A stretch of DNA of 64,000 nucleotides, taken from assembly GCA_937877455.1 (NCBI GenBank), contig CALFIU010000044.1, forward strand, positions 6,641 through 70,640. The letters are read 5' to 3'. The translations under genes were made by a program, and so were the position numbers. The stretch's first letter is position 1. Every line of letters begins with the position of its first letter. The DNA is from an uncultured Bacteroidales bacterium (lineage in GTDB: Bacteria > Bacteroidota > Bacteroidia > Bacteroidales > UBA3824). The notes below the pieces were generated by a model. The model searched no databases. It saw only the letters and a program-made list of their open reading frames with translations, and was not told the DNA's origin. This document shows, piece by piece, positions 1,752 through 6,435 of this stretch.

Positions 1752-4466
1752 TTACAATGTAAAAATGTTGAAATTTTCGTCAATGTTTCCTATTGCAAGA
1801 TATTTATTTGAGTTGCTCATGCAAATTGTTTTTGGTAAAAATTTTTCTTCAATTTCTTTAATTTTTTGATTGTTTTTTGTGCTAAATATTCTTATTTTTC
1901 TGTCATCGCAAATGGCGGCAATGTAATTGTTATTTATTTTTATTTCGGGTATTTCGTATGGTAAATTTATTGGTTTTTCGTCGGTTGAAATTCTTATGTT
2001 ATAGATGTTTATGCGTCCTTCGTTGTCGCTAAAGTAAAGTTTTCCAGCTTCGCTCGATAGAGCCATTGATGTTATTTCTGTTTTTGTGTTTGATTGAATT
2101 TTTAGTATCTCGGCCAAAACATTGATTCTAAATACTTTGATGTTGTTTGAAAAATCTTTTCCTGCTACGTATTGCATGTCGGGTGATATTGTCATCATTC
2201 TAAAATCGTTGATTACTTTGTTAATAACACGACTACGTAAATCTATTTTATAAATTGAAAAATTATCCGACACAAAAAGTATTTCGTTGTTAAATGGATG
2301 AAAAAACATTTTTTTTGCCTCGCCAGTAAAGTTGGTAATGGCAGCATAATGTGTTATTTTTTCGTCAATAATATTCATTATTGTTAACTTTCTGCTACCG
2401 CCAAGTGCTATGAATTTTGTGTTTCTACTTATTGCTGCGCAAGTTACGTTTTCTTCTCCATAGTGTATGCGTTTCCAATCTGATGTTCTAAAAATTGAGT
2501 AACCACGTGGATTTTCGCATGTAATTGCGTATTCGTCATCGTTGCTAAAAACAATTTCTGATGTTCCACTTTCTGCAATTTTTATGTTTTTTGATGCTGA
2601 TTTAGAGGTTTCTGTTTTTTCTTGCAAATTTGGTTGGTTTTCATTGTTTTCCAACTTTGTTGCCAAACGCATATAATTTTTATAGTTTTCTATGTCCGCT
2701 TGACTTTTGCAGATTTCAGCAATTGTTTTATAAATCTCGTTTTTGTTGGCGATGTTATTTTTAATGGCATTTTTAAAGTTTTCTAATGCGTCTTGTGGTC
2801 TTTTTTGTATAAGGCAAACCACCCCATAGTTGTAATATGCATCAGCATTTTTGGGGTTAATGGATATTATTTTTTGACAATCGGAAATTACGTTTTTAAA
2901 ATTGCCGAGGTTGCCGTATGCACATGCACGACGTAGATATGCAATTTCGTTTTGGTTGTCGGTTTCCAAAATTTTATTGCATGTTTCTATTAGTTTTTTC
3001 CAATTTGCATTTTTATAGTATGTTTCCATTTCGTCAACAAGCAGTTTTGATTCTTTTTCTTCAACTTCCTCAGGTGTAGGGGCGGGTAGGGGGTCTTGAG
3101 ACAAATTGTTTGTTAACGGTGGCAATTTTGTTGTTTCAATATTTTGTGTGTATGGTGTTTCGTTATATTTTATCAATATTTCTGTTGTTTGTTGCTGTTT
3201 TGTAGGTTTTATTTCGGTTTTAACAACTTCAGTTTCAAGTTGTTCCAATTCAATTATATCTTCATCATCGTCATAATTTCCAGCAACTTGCAATTTTTGT
3301 TTTGCTTTTGTTGTTTTTTGAGTTTTTACTGGAATTGGTTCTGTATTATTAATTTTTATTGTAGTGTTATCTGTAGATGTTTTTATAATTGGCTTTTGTT
3401 GAGCAACTATTTCATTTTCAGTTTGCAGTGTTGTTGCATTTTCTTTTTCAAACGATTTTGAATTTATTTCGGCAAGAAAATCGCTTTCGCTTTTATTTTC
3501 TGGTTTTTGAGGCAAATAATTTTCACGATAGTTTTGAGACGCGAGTATAACGGCTTGCGAATAATTCCACATTGGTATTTCCGTAAGAGTTTTTACGGTG
3601 TTAAATTTTTGCAACGAAGTATTGTCGTCGGTAATATTAAAAATTATTTGAGCAATGTGTTTACAACAACTTTCAGGATATTTTATAATCTGTTCTTCAG
3701 CAAAATGAATAACTATCCAACCAGCGTTAGAAAAAAACATATCGTGATTTGCTCTTGTGTATATGGATTGGTAGTCTTTTTTATTAATATAATCTTGAGG
3801 ATGATGAGTATCAAGAAGATACGGTATATCTATTTCTATGTCGATATATAGTTTTAAGTCAGAATTTGCTACTATATAATTTGGTGTAAATTGATTGTTA
3901 TTTAAATTTTGTTCCAATGTATAGTTAATTAATATGTTGTCGGGAAAGAAATTTTTTAGTGTTTTGTAAAAATAGTTAAAATATTTTGTTTTTGTGTTAT
4001 GAGCCGAAATAAGCGATGTGTTTGTAATTATCAAGTTTTCAATTACTTTTTTACGTCGATATTCTGTTAATGCAACGGGATCTGTGTTTTTGGTTTCAAT
4101 ATCTTTTCGTTCACCACATTCTTTAACATATCGCTGCATCAACAACTCGAATTTTTGATTTTCTTTTTCGTTAGTTGTTGATTTTATTTTATTTTTAATA
4201 GTTTCAAAAACTGTTGCAGATGCCGAAATACAGAAAAGTGTTAACAAAACAACTTTAATACCCCACATTGACTCTATTGGTGAAAATTTATAAGTTATTG
4301 ATAGTATTATAGTTATAATACATATAGTAAGAGCAACATAATGCTCTTTTAAAATCTTAGGTTGCTGTGGTTTAATAGGAGTAGGCGGCATTGGTATAAA
4401 ACTTTTTTGAGCCGCAATTATCCTTTCTGGTATTATATCTATTGGATAGTTTTCGTATTTATTCAT
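1752..4466 (-). CDS. Membrane-tethered multidomain protein: 2 TM helices, Vsr/DUF559-type nuclease-like core, disordered linker, TPR repeats, WD40/beta-propeller-like C-terminus
   Basis: 904-aa ORF with an ATG start. TM helices: ALTICIITIILSITYKF and VVLLTLFCISASATVF. PD-(D/E)XK-like signature: LKLYIDIEIDIPY..H..RANHDMFFSNAGWIVIHFAEEQI. A ~150-aa K/T/Q/E-rich linker follows. TPR-like: WKKLIETCNKILETDNQNEIAYLRRACAYGNLGNFKNVISDCQKIISINPKNADAYYNYGVV. The C-terminal ~270 aa carry repeated ..IA.G..d..I.If.. blades. Confidence 0.6.
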   Translation of the reverse strand: MNKYENYPIDIIPERIIAAQKSFIPMPPTPIKPQQPKILKEHYVALTICIITIILSITYKFSPIESMWGIKVVLLTLFCISASATVFETIKNKIKSTTNEKENQKFELLMQRYVKECGERKDIETKNTDPVALTEYRRKKVIENLIITNTSLISAHNTKTKYFNYFYKTLKNFFPDNILINYTLEQNLNNNQFTPNYIVANSDLKLYIDIEIDIPYLLDTHHPQDYINKKDYQSIYTRANHDMFFSNAGWIVIHFAEEQIIKYPESCCKHIAQIIFNITDDNTSLQKFNTVKTLTEIPMWNYSQAVILASQNYRENYLPQKPENKSESDFLAEINSKSFEKENATTLQTENEIVAQQKPIIKTSTDNTTIKINNTEPIPVKTQKTTKAKQKLQVAGNYDDDEDIIELEQLETEVVKTEIKPTKQQQTTEILIKYNETPYTQNIETTKLPPLTNNLSQDPLPAPTPEEVEEKESKLLVDEMETYYKNANWKKLIETCNKILETDNQNEIAYLRRACAYGNLGNFKNVISDCQKIISINPKNADAYYNYGVVCLIQKRPQDALENFKNAIKNNIANKNEIYKTIAEICKSQADIENYKNYMRLATKLENNENQPNLQEKTETSKSASKNIKIAESGTSEIVFSNDDEYAITCENPRGYSIFRTSDWKRIHYGEENVTCAAISRNTKFIALGGSRKLTIMNIIDEKITHYAAITNFTGEAKKMFFHPFNNEILFVSDNFSIYKIDLRSRVINKVINDFRMMTISPDMQYVAGKDFSNNIKVFRINVLAEILKIQSNTKTEITSMALSSEAGKLYFSDNEGRINIYNIRISTDEKPINLPYEIPEIKINNNYIAAICDDRKIRIFSTKNNQKIKEIEEKFLPKTICMSNSNKYLAIGNIDENFNIFTL

Positions 4467-4602
4467 TTTACTATAATTTTATAAGAGATTATACAAATAT
4501 TGTGCAAAACATATCATTTAGAAAAAAAATGTAAAATTTAGTTGTTTGGCTTAGGTTTTGCAGTGCATTTGAAAAAGAAACTAAAAAATACAAAAATATA
4601 AA

Positions 4603-5652
4603 ATGATAACGAGTTATAGTTTTCCAAGTGTTTTTGAACATAACAATTCAGATCTTTCGATGGTTTCGCAAGACCTTTTAAATGGCTTGCGTATATTCAT
4701 TGATGATGTACCATATATTGTTGGTAATCTTGCCCTTACTGAAGGTGGTTCGCCACACAGAACAGTTAATGCAGCCCCAACAGAAATAGATTATAAGATA
4801 CTTTTCAAGGCAGCATTGTTGCTTGCTTCGTATAAAAACAATAGACCTTTGACTATAACAACTGGTTTTCCATTGAGTACATATCAGGTTAATAAAAATA
4901 TTACACCTGAATTGCTTCAAAAAACTCATAAAATTGATTTTGACCTTTCTACTTTTACCAACAAAGGTCGTTCGGAAATGAAAGTTGACGTGGTTTCGGT
5001 TGAAATTATTCCCGAAATTCTTGGAAATATTGTAGCTTTGCGACAAGGAGAAACCAAGGCTTCTGGAAACTTTTTTGTGGTAAGTCTTGGATTTGGTACG
5101 TGTGAAGCTGTTCTCAGTACAGAAAATGGTATGGTTCAACGTACTGCTCTTAGCGTTCCGGGGTTGCAATATGCAATAAGTTTGTTTATCAAGGAATTGG
5201 GGTTGCAATATTCGCTTGGTCTTAAAAATGAACGTCAGATTGAGCAAGCGTTCATGAGCAATTTTATTATTCTAAATCGTAAAAAAATCGACATTCTTGA
5301 CATTCGTCGTAATGTTTTGAATATGTATTACAGAGATGTAATTTCTCCAAATTTCCGTCGTACTTTTACAGATGCCGATTTTACAAAAGCAAGTAAAATG
5401 TACATTACTGGTGGTGGTGCTCTTTATATGGAACTTATTGAAAATTTTTACAAAGAATTTGAAGGTATATTGAATATCGAAGTAGTTGAAAATCCATTGA
5501 CATTAACTTCGCTTGGATATTGTCTTAATTCTGTGAAGTCTAACGGCGGCGACACAAATACAGCCGTTGGTATAGATATGGGTAATTCTAATACAGTTAT
5601 TACTCAATACGAAGATGTAGATATTGATTCTGGTAGCCTTAGATTTAAATAA
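4603..5652 (+). CDS. ParM/ALP-type actin-fold protein, apparently circularly permuted (phosphate-1 motif at the C-terminus)
   Basis: The order of motifs matches ParM from the third strand onward: YSFPSVF, ITTGFPLSTY, VEIIPEILG, VVSLGFGTCE (phosphate-2 position), MYITGGGA (adenosine motif). There is no N-terminal DxG hairpin. The C-terminal residues read AVGIDMGNSNTVITQYED (nt 5563-5610). Confidence 0.7.
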   Translation: MITSYSFPSVFEHNNSDLSMVSQDLLNGLRIFIDDVPYIVGNLALTEGGSPHRTVNAAPTEIDYKILFKAALLLASYKNNRPLTITTGFPLSTYQVNKNITPELLQKTHKIDFDLSTFTNKGRSEMKVDVVSVEIIPEILGNIVALRQGETKASGNFFVVSLGFGTCEAVLSTENGMVQRTALSVPGLQYAISLFIKELGLQYSLGLKNERQIEQAFMSNFIILNRKKIDILDIRRNVLNMYYRDVISPNFRRTFTDADFTKASKMYITGGGALYMELIENFYKEFEGILNIEVVENPLTLTSLGYCLNSVKSNGGDTNTAVGIDMGNSNTVITQYEDVDIDSGSLRFK

Positions 5653-5681
5653 GGATAGTTTAAATTTTATTCATAATGCTG

Positions 5682-5717
5682 CGGAATGGAGAATGATAAG
5701 TTCTCTGTTCCGTTTTT
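5682..5717 (+). terminator. Imperfect hairpin plus T-run after the actin-like gene
   Basis: cggaatggagaa..ttctctgttccg (two central mismatches) followed by ttttt at 5713-5717. Confidence 0.45.
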
Positions 5718-5763
5718 GATTTTGGGTAATAAAAATTTTTTTTTATAAATTATAAAAAAATAT

Positions 5764-6435
5764 ATGAATTTTTTTGTTGGCGGCATTGATACCGATTGCG
5801 GAAAAACAGCGGTTACAGCTTTGATTTCAAAATATCTTTTGTCTATTGGATATACGGTAATTACTCAAAAACCAGTACAAACTGGATGCGAAAAAGTGGC
5901 AGATGACATAAAATTTCATCGCAAAACCGAAGGTAGAAATTTTTTAGAGGAAGATTATAATGGTTTGACTTGTAGATATTTATTTAAATATCCTGCATCT
6001 CCGCATCTTTCTGCTATGATGGAAAATGTTAAAATTGATCCTCAACTTATTTTTAATGATTCACAAGCTCTTCAATCAAAATATCAGGTTGTTTTAACAG
6101 AAGGAGCAGGTGGTCTTTATGTACCTCTTTATGGTGATTATTATACTATAGATTATATAAAAAATTATAACTTAAATCTTGTTTTGGTAACTTCATCAAA
6201 GCTTGGAAGTATCAATCATGCTTTGCTTAGTATTGAAGCATGTAAAGCGAGAGCAATAAATTTACATTCTGTAATTTACAATTATCTTCCAAATTGGGAC
6301 AAAGTTATATCGCCCGAAAGTGAAAAACGAATTGAACAGTTTGCGCATAAAATGTATCCAAATTCTAAGTTTTATGCTGTTCCTACTGTTGATAATTTTG
6401 AAAACAAAATAGTTGAATTTAAAGATTTTATATAA
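5764..6435 (+). CDS. bioD: Dethiobiotin synthetase
   Basis: N-terminal P-loop GGIDTDCGKTAV (family pattern GTDTxVGKT). Also LTEGAGGLYVPL. Length 223 aa. Confidence 0.85.
   Translation: MNFFVGGIDTDCGKTAVTALISKYLLSIGYTVITQKPVQTGCEKVADDIKFHRKTEGRNFLEEDYNGLTCRYLFKYPASPHLSAMMENVKIDPQLIFNDSQALQSKYQVVLTEGAGGLYVPLYGDYYTIDYIKNYNLNLVLVTSSKLGSINHALLSIEACKARAINLHSVIYNYLPNWDKVISPESEKRIEQFAHKMYPNSKFYAVPTVDNFENKIVEFKDFI

What the first reader, a model, noticed from the sequence alone, without database searches (positions are those of the whole stretch)
4603..5652. ParM/ALP-type actin-fold protein that appears circularly permuted (phosphate-1 hairpin relocated to the C-terminus)
Read against R1 ParM (from memory), the ORF follows actin-like order from the third strand onward. 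The matches are YSFPSVF (ParM HISPNSF), ITTGFPLSTY (CTLPLTEY), VEIIPEILG (VKVMPESIP), FFVVSLGFGTCE at the phosphate-2 position (IIDLGGTTLD), and MYITGGGA (VMVIGGGA). The N-terminal beta1-loop-beta2 phosphate-1 element (ParM LVFIDDGSTNIK) is missing. The ORF begins MITSYSFPS, an in-frame TAA sits at 4582-4584, and only 136 AT-rich nt separate it from the divergent gene. After a Gly-rich linker (SNGGDTNT), the last ~30 residues read AVGIDMGNSNTVITQYEDVDIDSGSLRFK (nt 5563-5649), a textbook ASKHA phosphate-1 hairpin. Joining the C-terminus to the N-terminus (..GIDMGNSNTVITQYEDVDIDSGSLRFK|MITSYSFPSVF) recreates the normal ParM N-terminus. That is what a duplication-fusion-truncation route to circular permutation predicts. 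Both termini of the actin fold lie in subdomain IA, so the arrangement is sterically plausible. Phosphate-2 has S and F where D and G are usual, so nucleotide handling may also be altered. I am not aware of a described permuted bacterial actin.
Basis: partly seen in the sequence, partly recalled or inferred. Interest (0 to 1): 0.8.

Follow-up and report, generated by a model that had tools for sequence, protein, structure and literature searches.

The report
Circularly permuted bacterial actin (ParM-like)
This gene encodes a bacterial actin relative whose ATP-binding first hairpin sits at the end of the chain instead of the start; the rearrangement is real, is conserved in hundreds of Bacteroidota species and on some plasmids and phages, and I found no description of it in the searched literature.

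Summary
ORF 4603-5652 (+) encodes a 349-aa ParM/Alp-type actin-fold protein. It starts at strand beta3 and carries the phosphate-1 hairpin (AVGIDMGNSNTVITQY, residues 321-336) at its C-terminus. Pfam ALP_N matches only profile positions 18-148. Moving the hairpin to the front in silico restores a 1-148 match and adds about 11 bits over shuffled controls. A profile-profile comparison with canonical relatives gives the same result. AlphaFold2 models the hairpin confidently. Deleting it removes the N-terminal strand from the model, which fits beta2-beta3 pairing. The order is conserved in a chromosomal Bacteroidota family found in at least 219 species. It is also conserved in distant subfamilies on plasmids and phage-like contigs that have parC-like repeats and small ParR-like genes. 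Among the full-length relatives examined, nearly all carry the hairpin at one end or the other, and none at both. In Cytophagales, Sphingobacteriales and Balneolales the gene is followed directly by a bactofilin gene. The window's rumen-type Bacteroidales clade has a stand-alone gene with its own terminator. Filament formation and cellular role are inferred, not shown. No paper in the searched library describes a permuted bacterial actin. Verdict: new variant of a known kind, interest about 0.7.

The parts
4467..4602 (.). AT-rich divergent intergenic region holding the presumed promoter. It contains no hidden N-terminal exon and no centromere-like repeats.
   Evidence: All three frames contain stops and none has a DxG motif. 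There are no direct repeats. Promoter-like matches do not exceed the shuffled expectation.
4603..5652 (+). Gene for the 349-aa circularly permuted ParM/Alp-family actin-fold protein, stop codon included.
4606..4626 (+). Residues 2-8 (ITSYSFP): the strand equivalent to canonical beta3, here the first structural element of the chain.
   Evidence: It aligns to the canonical 'fPSiVG' that follows the N-terminal hairpin. It is a strand in the full model and is lost when the C-terminal hairpin is deleted.
4855..4884 (+). ITTGFPLSTY (residues 85-94): beta4 and the connect-1 region of subdomain IA.
   Evidence: T86, G88 and P90 are invariant. It aligns to the canonical 'lVTGLPv~~y'.
4999..5025 (+). 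VEIIPEILG (residues 133-141), containing the invariant E138 at the position of the ParM/MreB catalytic Glu.
   Evidence: E138 is invariant in A1 and A3 and at least 90% conserved in A4. It aligns to the canonical 'V~ViPQP~G'.
5071..5106 (+). Phosphate-2 hairpin FFVVSLGFGTCE (residues 157-168). S161 sits where canonical relatives have Asp.
   Evidence: S161, G163, G165 and E168 are invariant and T166 nearly so. hhalign places 'vvSLGfGT~E' over 'iIDvGf~TtD'.
5398..5421 (+). Adenosine motif MYITGGGA (residues 266-273).
   Evidence: G270 and G271 are invariant and G272 nearly so. It aligns to the canonical 'itGGGa'.
5536..5562 (+). Gly-rich linker KSNGGDTNT (residues 312-320) joining the ancestral C-terminal helix to the ancestral N-terminus.
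   Evidence: It lies between helix 301-313 and strand 321-326 in the model. The NGGD consensus is conserved across the family.
5563..5610 (+). Relocated phosphate-1 hairpin AVGIDMGNSNTVITQY (residues 321-336; beta1-loop-beta2).
   Evidence: D325, G327 and N328 are invariant. Re-permutation tests. Model strands 321-326 and 330-336 have pLDDT 88 and 79. Deletion test.
5611..5649 (+). C-terminal tail EDVDIDSGSLRFK (residues 337-349). The last 11 residues are disordered in the model, and the tail ends in a clade-conserved [DN]L[RK]FK motif.
   Evidence: pLDDT is below 50 for residues 339-349. The tail motif is conserved in the loci of the window clade.
5681..5723 (+). Intrinsic-terminator-like hairpin plus T-run, 29 nt after the stop codon. 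The gene therefore looks monocistronic.
   Evidence: 14-pair stem followed by TTTTGATTTT. The next gene (bioD-like, AAA_26) starts at 5764.

Best explanation
The ORF encodes a naturally circularly permuted member of the ParM/Alp branch of the actin (ASKHA) fold. In a canonical ParM the chain begins with beta1-loop-beta2 (phosphate-1), followed by beta3. Here the chain begins at beta3 (residues 2-8) and runs through subdomains IB, IIA and IIB and the closing helix of IA (301-313). A Gly-rich linker (312-320) then leads into the phosphate-1 hairpin (321-336), which is followed by a short disordered tail. In the folded protein the hairpin most likely inserts into the subdomain IA sheet next to the N-terminal strand. 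This would rebuild an ordinary nucleotide site from D325/G327/N328 (phosphate-1), E138, S161/G163/G165/T166/E168 (phosphate-2) and G270-G272 (adenosine).

Shown here: the fold, the permuted order, its conservation, and its chromosomal, monocistronic setting in a low-GC Bacteroidales genome with no ParR-like gene, centromere-like repeats or bactofilin gene nearby.

Inferred: like its relatives, the protein binds ATP or GTP and assembles into filaments. The lineage descends from plasmid or phage ParMRC-type segregation actins that already carried the permutation and was taken over as a chromosomal cytoskeletal element in Bacteroidota; in most orders it is co-transcribed with a bactofilin. The conserved C-terminal tail is a docking peptide for a partner or for the membrane. 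The Asp-to-Ser change in phosphate-2 slows hydrolysis.
For: Fold: Pfam ALP_N scores 55.7 bits against a cut-off of 26.3. Foldseek against the PDB gives probability 1.0 and TM 0.67-0.72 to Ta0583, pCBH ParM, Dh-cParM1, CorM, pSK41 ParM and Alp7A. The native family profile hits pCBH ParM at E=1.6e-10 with profile position 3 aligned to chain residue 25.

Permutation: ALP_N covers only profile 18-148 in the native order. With the hairpin moved to the front it covers 1-148 at 62.4-67.2 bits, against 54.8-59.3 for 10 controls; the best control is the paralogous phosphate-2 hairpin. hhalign scores are 277.4 re-permuted, 259.8 native, 260.6 deleted and 259.5-269.3 for controls. The re-permuted profile aligns to CorM starting from its phosphate-1. 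PHROG 691 'partition protein' matches mobile permuted relatives only from profile positions 24-28 onward.

Structure: the model has pLDDT 83.7 and pTM 0.85 with a confident hairpin. In the hairpin-deleted model strand 2-8 disappears and the pLDDT of residues 1-10 falls from 85 to 68.

Conservation: 463 proteins and at least 219 species share the order, with invariant D325, G327 and N328. Distant subfamilies at 20-25% identity are permuted too. In a motif census of full-length hits, nearly every protein carries the phosphate-1 motif at the N- or the C-terminus and none at both.

Context: a terminator follows the gene, GC content matches the neighbours, and the window holds no repeats at the gene and no paralogue. 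Mobile relatives have 11-bp-spaced or 21-22-bp repeats upstream, a small downstream gene, and TrfA or phage tail genes nearby. A bactofilin gene lies immediately downstream in 53 of 91 loci.
Against: The PDB profile test was mixed. The re-permuted profile extended the CorM alignment into phosphate-1 but lost the pCBH ParM hit, which the native-order profile found at E=1.6e-10.

The reversed hairpin recovered about half of the hhalign gain.

A single origin of the permutation is not established. The NJ tree on the core groups all 38 permuted sequences but includes one canonical interloper, and the exact split has 29/100 bootstrap support.

Nothing tests nucleotide binding, hydrolysis or polymerisation. 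S161 at the phosphate-2 Asp position could mean weak or absent ATPase activity. The window clade has neither bactofilin nor ParR, so its cellular role is the least constrained part of the explanation.
Confidence: 0.8

Rival explanations
1. The ORF is an artefact: an assembly chimera, or the fused debris of two tandem actin-like genes (the end of one and the start of the next), with no function.
For: A head-to-tail pair of parM genes cut in the middle would produce this order of motifs. One odd database protein (P0185, 378 aa) joins an unrelated N-terminal part to the last 65 residues of the family.
Against: The identical protein is on 7 independent contigs. There are 463 homologues, and at least 219 species have the same start, length and end. 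The motifs are invariant, indicating purifying selection. No flanking actin-like fragments and no paralogue are present. The single-domain model is confident.
Confidence: 0.01
2. The C-terminal GIDMGN segment only resembles phosphate-1 by chance. On this reading the protein lacks that hairpin, and the tail is an unrelated extension that packs elsewhere or binds a partner. The protein would then be a degenerate actin-like scaffold that does not bind nucleotide.
For: The segment is short. A reversed version recovers part of the hhalign gain (269.3 against 277.4). The re-permuted profile did not uniformly improve the PDB hits. Phosphate-2 carries Ser instead of Asp.
Against: The Pfam gain of about 11 bits with full 1-148 coverage is seen only with the true segment. 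DxGN is invariant across subfamilies that are only about 20% identical. Among full-length relatives examined the motif is at one end or the other and never at both. Every canonical relative has exactly this element before the FPS strand. Deleting it from the model destabilises the adjacent N-terminal strand. The hydrophobic alternation V-I-M fits a buried central strand (read from the sequence).
Confidence: 0.05
3. The hairpin is donated in trans. The chain is broken between beta2 and beta3 and the hairpin hangs on a Gly-rich linker, so it could complete the subdomain IA sheet and ATP site of a neighbouring protomer. Assembly would then be a strand-swapped polymer or dimer.
For: Only permissive evidence: the flexible NGGD linker and the termini created at a sheet edge.
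Against: The monomer model closes the fold in cis with pTM 0.85. The linker is short at about 8 residues. No multimer prediction or experiment was possible.
Confidence: 0.05
4. The protein has the permuted actin fold but does not form filaments. It would be an ASKHA-type enzyme, chaperone-like ATPase or regulator that works as a monomer or dimer.
For: The window gene has no ParR, parC or bactofilin partner. The family profile also picks up Hsp70 nucleotide-binding domains weakly. Some ParM-like proteins, such as Ta0583, polymerise poorly (my recollection of the literature).
Against: The best sequence and structure matches are all cytomotive ParM/Alp proteins. Permuted relatives sit in partition-type loci and next to a polymer-forming bactofilin.
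Confidence: 0.15

Closest known systems
pCBH ParM of Clostridium botulinum (PDB 6IXW/6IZR)
   Same: It is the best profile-to-sequence match among solved structures (E=1.6e-10) and a top structural match (TM 0.68-0.72). The Alp_N-type core, the catalytic Glu region and the GGG adenosine motif are shared.
   Different: pCBH ParM has about 24 extra N-terminal residues, the phosphate-1 hairpin, which the window protein carries at its C-terminus. pCBH ParM is plasmid-borne with ParR and parC (plasmid location from the record title and abstract; ParR/parC from general knowledge), whereas the window gene is chromosomal and solitary. Foldseek alignment identity to solved ParM/Alp structures is 12-18%.
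Ta0583, the archaeal actin homologue of Thermoplasma acidophilum (PDB 2FSJ)
   Same: It is the best Foldseek hit (E=5e-15, TM 0.67/0.72). It is a chromosomal, solitary Alp_N-type protein.
   Different: It has the canonical strand order. Sequence identity is 16%. It is archaeal.
R1 plasmid ParM (PDB 1MWM/4A61), the archetype of type II partition
   Same: It has the same fold.
   Different: The motif order is canonical. ParM works with ParR and parC, both absent from the window. Its phosphate-2 has Asp where this family has Ser. The structural match is weaker (TM 0.47-0.56).
Chromosomal ParM derivatives: CorM of Anabaena (PDB 9RMI; bioRxiv 10.1101/2025.06.27.661541) and Dh-cParM1 (PDB 8X1I; PMC12270681)
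   Same: These are ParM-family actins encoded on chromosomes, and CorM has been repurposed from DNA segregation to cell-shape control (abstracts seen). They are among the top structural and profile hits. The Bacteroidota clade looks like a parallel domestication.
   Different: Both have the canonical order. CorM keeps a ParR-derived partner (CorR). Here the partner position is filled by a bactofilin in most orders and is empty in the window clade.
FtsA (from general knowledge)
   Same: It is the known precedent for a topological rearrangement within a bacterial actin: subdomain 1C takes the place of 1B.
   Different: That is a domain relocation or insertion, not a circular permutation. Phosphate-1 stays N-terminal. 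It was not tested here.

Membership tests
ParM/Alp actin-like proteins (Pfam PF17989 ALP_N; actin/ASKHA fold) | Significant match to the ALP_N profile above Pfam's gathering score | tested here: met
   55.7 bits against a cut-off of 26.3, E=8e-15. The match is partial, covering profile 18-148.
ParM/Alp actin-like proteins (Pfam PF17989 ALP_N; actin/ASKHA fold) | Two-lobed actin fold with subdomains IA/IB and IIA/IIB | tested here: met
   AF2 pLDDT 83.7 and pTM 0.85. Foldseek probability 1.0 and TM 0.67-0.72 to Ta0583, ParMs and Alps, with MreB, MamK and Hsp70 lower.
ParM/Alp actin-like proteins (Pfam PF17989 ALP_N; actin/ASKHA fold) | All five nucleotide-site motifs present (phosphate-1, connect-1, phosphate-2, adenosine, connect-2 region) | tested here: met
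   D325-G327-N328, T86-G88-P90, S161-G163-G165-T166-E168, G270-G272 and G305-Y306 are conserved. The phosphate-2 Asp is replaced by Ser.
ParM/Alp actin-like proteins (Pfam PF17989 ALP_N; actin/ASKHA fold) | Canonical linear order, with phosphate-1 at the N-terminus | tested here: not met
   Phosphate-1 lies at residues 321-336, and the chain starts at beta3. This is the feature that makes the protein a variant.
ParM/Alp actin-like proteins (Pfam PF17989 ALP_N; actin/ASKHA fold) | Nucleotide-dependent polymerisation into filaments | not testable with these tools
   This needs purified protein (pelleting, light scattering, EM) or imaging in cells.
Type II (ParMRC) partition system | Small adaptor gene (ParR) directly downstream of the actin gene | tested here: not met
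   In the window a terminator-like hairpin follows the gene and the next gene is bioD-like. Distant permuted relatives on plasmids and phage-like contigs do have small genes of 93-124 aa overlapping or abutting the actin gene. One has an RHH-like N-terminus and an acidic tail, but none matched Pfam or PHROGs.
Type II (ParMRC) partition system | Centromere-like direct repeats (parC) next to the operon | tested here: not met
   There are no direct repeats in window 4440-4620. Such repeats are present upstream of mobile relatives: 5 copies spaced 11 bp apart in L091 4867-4995 and 3 copies of 21-22 bp in L093 4927-4990.
Type II (ParMRC) partition system | Location on a plasmid or phage | tested here: not met
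   The window neighbours are housekeeping genes (TonB receptor, bioD, panB, FKBP) with the same GC content. Relatives lie in Mb-scale chromosomes, for example NZ_CP159481.1.
Natural circular permutant of a known fold | The N-terminal segment of the canonical protein is homologous to the C-terminal segment of the variant, and the remainder is collinear | tested here: met
   Pfam and hhalign re-permutation tests with controls. Canonical relatives are offset by about +20 residues.
Natural circular permutant of a known fold | The relocated segment occupies the same place in the three-dimensional structure | tested here: inconclusive
   The hairpin is modelled confidently (pLDDT 88 and 79), and deleting it removes the neighbouring N-terminal strand. 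Coordinates could not be superposed with a permutation-aware method.
Natural circular permutant of a known fold | The permuted order is conserved in orthologues, not a one-off | tested here: met

The most novel reading that the evidence does not exclude
Permuted actins would form one ancient clade spanning several phyla. It would have begun as plasmid and phage ParMRC motors and been domesticated in Bacteroidota as a chromosomal two-polymer cytoskeleton, with a bactofilin taking the place of ParR. The permutation would itself be functional. It puts the ATP-binding phosphate-1 hairpin and a partner-binding tail at the very end of the chain. The nucleotide site would then be completed last during synthesis, and it could be gated by the tail, by a partner, or by donation of the hairpin to a neighbouring protomer.
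Probability: 0.15. Interest if true: 0.85.

Novelty: new variant of a known kind. Interest (0 to 1): 0.7.

Why it matters
All bacterial actins described so far, to my knowledge, keep one linear order of the five nucleotide-site motifs; FtsA differs only by moving a subdomain. A conserved natural circular permutation shows that the actin fold tolerates new termini at the beta2/beta3 edge of subdomain IA, and it places the phosphate-1 loop at the C-terminus next to a variable tail.

This has four practical consequences:
- Annotation and structure tools that align sequentially see only a truncated match (Pfam profile 18-148, PHROG 691 from position 24-28), and many members are labelled hypothetical.
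- Terminal tags commonly used on bacterial actins would sit beside the active site here.
- The natural break point suggests a split or sensor site for engineering actin-fold proteins.
- The family adds a candidate chromosomal cytoskeleton in Bacteroidota, tightly paired with bactofilin in Cytophagales, Sphingobacteriales and Balneolales. That makes the interplay between actin-like and bactofilin polymers directly testable.

It also gives a second apparent case, after cyanobacterial CorMR, of a segregation actin taken over by the chromosome.

Tried and rejected
1. Mean-field direct-coupling analysis on 238 family sequences (Meff 78), aimed at contacts between the hairpin and strands 2-8 and 83-89. 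The top couplings were terminal-gap artefacts and the hairpin columns are nearly invariant, so it was uninformative.

2. Profile search of the PDB with a re-permuted alignment against the same 16 sequences in native order. The result was mixed: the CorM alignment extended into phosphate-1 (31.6 against 29.8 bits), but the pCBH ParM hit found by the native profile (E=1.6e-10) was lost. I therefore do not count this test in favour.

3. NJ tree of the core without hairpins, to test a single origin. The permuted sequences cluster, but with one canonical interloper and 29/100 bootstrap support, so the question stays open.

4. Search for intermediates with hairpins at both ends or for tandem fusions. 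None appeared among the full-length hits.

5. Pfam and PHROG scans of the small genes downstream of mobile relatives gave no ParR or RHH family hit. The ParR-like call rests on size, position and one RHH-like N-terminus.

6. tblastn of a phage-context relative against the phage collection gave no match.

7. A bactofilin in the 64-kb window: none (best tblastn E=0.012).

8. A conserved upstream partner: the upstream genes of the Roseivirga loci and of the window's relatives are unrelated to each other.

9. Literature: five searches and three papers checked. None mentions a permuted bacterial actin or an actin-bactofilin operon.

10. Single-sequence phmmer against the PDB gave no hit, and NCBIfam gave only a weak partial MreB match.
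Full report
**1. Observation.**
The ORF at 4603-5652 (+) is real: 349 aa, starting MITSYSFPSVF. The in-frame TAA at 4582-4584 and the 136-nt AT-rich gap to the divergent 904-aa gene (1752-4466, minus strand) can be read directly from the sequence. None of the three frames of that gap is open or encodes a DxG hairpin. Pfam ALP_N matches at E=8e-15 (55.7 bits, cut-off 26.3). The match covers protein residues 4-141 against profile positions 18-148 of 148, so the first 17 profile positions, which model beta1-loop-beta2 (phosphate-1), have no partner at the N-terminus. Single-sequence searches of the PDB and of NCBIfam gave nothing useful.

**2. Not an artefact.**
The identical protein is encoded on seven independent metagenome contigs from bioreactor and other samples, with the same neighbours. 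A word-indexed search found 463 homologues. The best 120 cover 84-100% of the query, and most are 338-360 aa long. In a 22-sequence alignment all members start within a few residues of M-x-x-S-Y-S-F-P-S-V. All carry A-V-G-[IL]-D-[IVM]-G-N-x-x-T near the C-terminus, with G323, D325, G327, N328 and T331 invariant. A scan of one genome per GTDB species found 219 species with a relative. They include:
- rumen and gut Bacteroidales MAGs at 75-83% identity, which form the window's clade;
- other Bacteroidales MAGs at 54-57%;
- Cytophagales (Roseivirga, Cyclobacterium, Lunatimonas, Belliella, Mongoliibacter and others), Sphingobacteriales (Daejeonella; Mucilaginibacter) and Balneolales.

Many relatives lie in contigs or complete chromosomes of megabase size.

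**3. Is the C-terminal segment phosphate-1? Sequence tests.**
- Pfam. I moved residues 318-349 (or a trimmed 318-340) in front of residue 2. ALP_N then covered profile 1-148 and scored 62.4 and 67.2 bits, against 55.7 for the native order.
- Pfam controls. Ten controls with the same core scored 54.8-59.3 bits and never reached profile position 1. They used the reversed hairpin, six shuffles and three other 23-residue segments of the protein. The best control (59.3) was the protein's own phosphate-2 hairpin, the ancient internal paralogue of phosphate-1, which serves as a useful positive control.
- Profile-profile comparison. I compared 36 permuted sequences with 22 canonical relatives recovered in the exhaustive search. 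hhalign gave 277.4 (323 columns, template 7-342) for the re-permuted set. It gave 259.8 for the native set (303 columns, template 26-341) and 260.6 with the hairpin deleted. Six column shuffles gave 259.5-263.8 and the reversed hairpin gave 269.3.
- Aligned residues. 'MTAVGIDMGNSNTVITQ...SYSFPSVFE' lies over the canonical consensus 'igvDiGyG~tK~~~~~...~fPSiVG'.
- PDB profile test. This test was mixed. The re-permuted profile aligned CorM from its phosphate-1 onward (31.6 bits against 29.8). It lost the pCBH ParM hit that the native-order profile found at E=1.6e-10, where profile position 3 aligns to chain residue 25. I do not count this test in favour.

**4. Structure.**
AlphaFold2 with the 22-sequence alignment gave mean pLDDT 83.7 and pTM 0.85. 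The model starts with strand 2-8. It ends with helix 301-313, strands 321-326 and 330-336 (block pLDDT 88 and 79), and a disordered tail at 339-349. Foldseek against the PDB returned Ta0583 (E=5e-15, TM 0.67/0.72), pCBH ParM, Dh-cParM1, CorM, pSK41 ParM, Alp7A and Alp12, then MreB, MamK and Hsp70.

Model coordinates are not exposed, so I tested docking indirectly. I folded the protein cut before the hairpin (residues 1-317) with the same alignment.
- The N-terminal strand 2-8 vanished from the DSSP assignment, and the pLDDT of residues 1-10 fell from 85 to 68.
- Block 41-50 fell from 60 to 48.
- Part of the 176-186 strand was lost.
- The last block fell from 93 to 84.
- Nearly everything else stayed within a few points.

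The simplest reading is that strand 2-8 (canonical beta3) is hydrogen-bonded to strand 330-336 (canonical beta2), as in the normal subdomain IA sheet. This is supportive but not decisive.

**5. How wide is the permutation?**
An exhaustive profile search of 1.84 billion cluster representatives gave 224 hits. Below the Bacteroidota family (above about 289 bits) come weak full-length hits of two kinds.
- About 35 canonical proteins begin G-[IVL]-D-x-G-[YF]-G-x-x-K ... F-P-S-x-V-G and are offset by about +20 residues.
- About 20 further permuted proteins, only 18-25% identical to the window protein, begin near the FPS strand and end in [GV]-x-D-x-G-N (alignments A3 and A4).

In a motif census of full-length hits, nearly every protein carries the motif at one end or the other and none carries it at both. 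Two N-terminal regex matches were judged false positives by eye. Three proteins with degenerate or unclear termini (P0156, P0169, P0252) and one canonical-looking protein (P0268) matched neither pattern.

The Asn after the phosphate-1 Gly is shared across all permuted groups aligned here. The Ser in phosphate-2 is shared by most of them, but the P0262/Aeromonas plasmid subfamily has Gln there instead.

A crude NJ tree of the core without hairpins groups all 38 permuted sequences with one canonical interloper. The exact split has 29/100 bootstrap support, and the Bacteroidota clade has 100/100. A single origin is therefore plausible but not shown.

**6. The distant permuted proteins sit on mobile elements.**
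- P0262 (a Silvanigrellaceae protein by NCBI naming) lies beside TrfA, a resolvase and a BrnT/CopG pair. It is preceded by seven 22-bp iterons and, right at the gene, by five AT-rich repeats spaced 11 bp apart. A 104-aa gene abuts it downstream, starting 2 nt after the end of the ALP gene.
- P0294 and P0293 lie among phage sheath, wedge and tail genes, each followed by a small gene of 97 or 115 aa. Three 21-22-bp repeats precede P0294.
- tblastn found relatives annotated 'hypothetical protein' on Pigmentibacter ruber plasmid pGTC16762-3 and on eight Aeromonas plasmids of 190-373 kb.
- The Aeromonas pMC64A protein ends ...VKVGLDIGNAYLKGVFNV. It is followed by an overlapping 123-aa protein with an RHH-like N-terminus (RVQLRLPDDILNTL) and an acidic tail.
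- PHROG 691 'partition protein' matches these proteins only from profile positions 24-28 onward.
- No Pfam or PHROG family matched the small downstream proteins.

These loci look like parC-parM-parR systems built on a permuted actin.

**7. Context of the Bacteroidota family.**
I clustered the neighbours in 91 loci. A bactofilin gene (PF04519, E=1e-21 for the Roseivirga example) lies immediately downstream on the same strand, usually 0-30 nt away, in 53 loci. These are nearly all of the Cytophagales, Sphingobacteriales and Balneolales loci, and none of the Bacteroidales loci.

The window's clade instead shares the divergent 904-aa membrane, TPR and WD40 protein, in 13 loci. In two relatives an unrelated 281-aa gene is inserted between the pair.

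In the window the gene is followed after 29 nt by a 14-pair hairpin and a T-run, and then by a bioD-like gene. GC content is about 30%, like the flanks. The upstream gap has no direct repeats. The 64 kb contain no bactofilin gene and no second actin-like gene.

C-terminal tails after the hairpin are clade-specific:
- [DN]L[RK]FK in the window clade;
- [FY][EK]P.F[ST] in other Bacteroidales, some with a 100-200-aa Glu/Lys-rich spacer (proteins of 430-567 aa);
- G-W in a few;
- SIP[AS][ED]Y in Roseivirga;
- almost no tail in Cyclobacteriaceae.

**8. Mechanism.**
Shown:
- the permuted actin fold with all nucleotide-site motifs retained (D325/G327/N328, E138, G163/G165/T166/E168, G270-272);
- one systematic change, S161 in place of the phosphate-2 Asp;
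- consistent with that alignment, the profile ranks a D199S mutant of Hsc70 above most wild-type Hsc70 entries.

Inferred:
- the protein binds ATP or GTP and polymerises like ParM-family proteins;
- the Ser slows hydrolysis. In Hsc70 this Asp contributes to catalysis rather than to binding, which I state from memory of the literature;
- the tail is a short docking motif for a partner or the membrane;
- the Bacteroidota genes descend from mobile permuted partition actins and now act as a chromosomal cytoskeletal element, with bactofilin in most orders and alone in the window's clade.

The cellular process served in the window organism is unknown. I rate 'filament-forming cytoskeletal ATPase' at roughly 0.55-0.6 and the permuted fold itself at about 0.9. 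In passing, several bactofilin-linked genera (Cyclobacterium, Lunatimonas, Pleomorphovibrio) are described as ring-shaped, crescent-shaped or curved. This is from general knowledge and was not tested.

**9. Comparison with known systems, and novelty.**
The protein works like, and belongs by fold and profile to, the ParM/Alp group. It fails the canonical motif order. The window gene also fails the ParMRC system criteria: no ParR, no parC, not on a plasmid. The closest solved relatives are pCBH ParM, Ta0583, Dh-cParM1 and CorM, all with canonical order.

Five full-text searches found no description of a permuted bacterial actin or of an actin-bactofilin operon. Targeted reading of the chromosomal-ParM paper, the bactofilin membrane-binding paper and the two CIRPIN circular-permutation surveys found none either. 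The library is incomplete, so absence is not proof. Databases label members 'ParM/StbA family protein' or 'hypothetical protein'.

I rate it a new variant of a known kind, interest about 0.7.

Noticed in passing
L001 8001-9056 and 9056-9523; the same pattern in 53 of 91 loci (for example L037-L089): In Cytophagales, Sphingobacteriales and Balneolales the permuted actin gene is followed at 0-30 nt, often overlapping, by a bactofilin gene (PF04519). This looks like a conserved two-polymer operon. I found no paper describing it.
   Followed up: partly
L091 4390-4688, 4867-4995, 5001-6044, 6046-6360: A plasmid-like contig with TrfA, a resolvase and BrnT/CopG. It has seven 22-bp iterons, then five AT-rich repeats spaced 11 bp apart directly upstream of a permuted ParM-like gene, and an abutting 104-aa downstream gene. 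The layout resembles parC-parM-parR.
   Followed up: partly
L095 3001-4408 (Aeromonas media pMC64A) and L096 3001-4323 (Pigmentibacter ruber pGTC16762-3): Sequenced plasmids, including eight Aeromonas plasmids of 190-373 kb, carry permuted ParM-like genes annotated 'hypothetical protein'. Each is followed by a small gene. The Aeromonas one has an RHH-like N-terminus and an acidic C-terminal tail. In this subfamily phosphate-2 reads Q-I-G-G-G-D, not S-L-G-F-G-T.
   Followed up: partly
L093 5001-5978 and L094 5001-6035: Permuted ParM-like genes lie among phage tail, sheath and baseplate genes, each with a small downstream gene. PHROG 691 'partition protein' matches them only from profile positions 24-28 onward. 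No match was found in the GenBank phage collection.
   Followed up: partly
window 1752-4466 (minus strand): The divergent neighbour is a 904-aa protein with a hydrophobic N-terminal region, TPR repeats (about residues 486-586) and a C-terminal WD40-like propeller. It is conserved next to the actin gene in 13 loci of the window's clade, but in L005 and L006 an inserted 281-aa gene separates the two.
   Followed up: partly
P0023, P0025, P0027, P0037, P0048 (430-567 aa); L004 8001-9644; L026; L027; L031: Some Bacteroidales members carry a low-complexity Glu/Lys-rich spacer of 100-200 aa after the hairpin. It ends in a conserved D-[DN]-Y-E-P-D-F-S motif. Shorter relatives end in F-[EK]-P-x-F-[ST], and the window clade ends in [DN]L[RK]FK. 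These look like tethered short linear motifs.
   Followed up: partly
P0185 (378 aa): A database protein joins an unrelated acidic N-terminal region of about 310 aa to the last 65 or so residues of this family (...ILNIEVVDNPLTLTSVGYCLHS...GIDIGNSNTVITQYEDINIESGNLRFK). It is probably a chimeric contig or a miscalled gene.
   Followed up: no
window 5681-5723: A terminator-like hairpin (14 pairs) with a T-run separates the actin gene from the bioD-like gene at 5764-6435.
   Followed up: yes
P0121 (454 aa): One family member has a basic, low-complexity N-terminal extension of about 110 aa before the usual MVSYSFPS start. This may be a miscalled start codon or a real extension.
   Followed up: no
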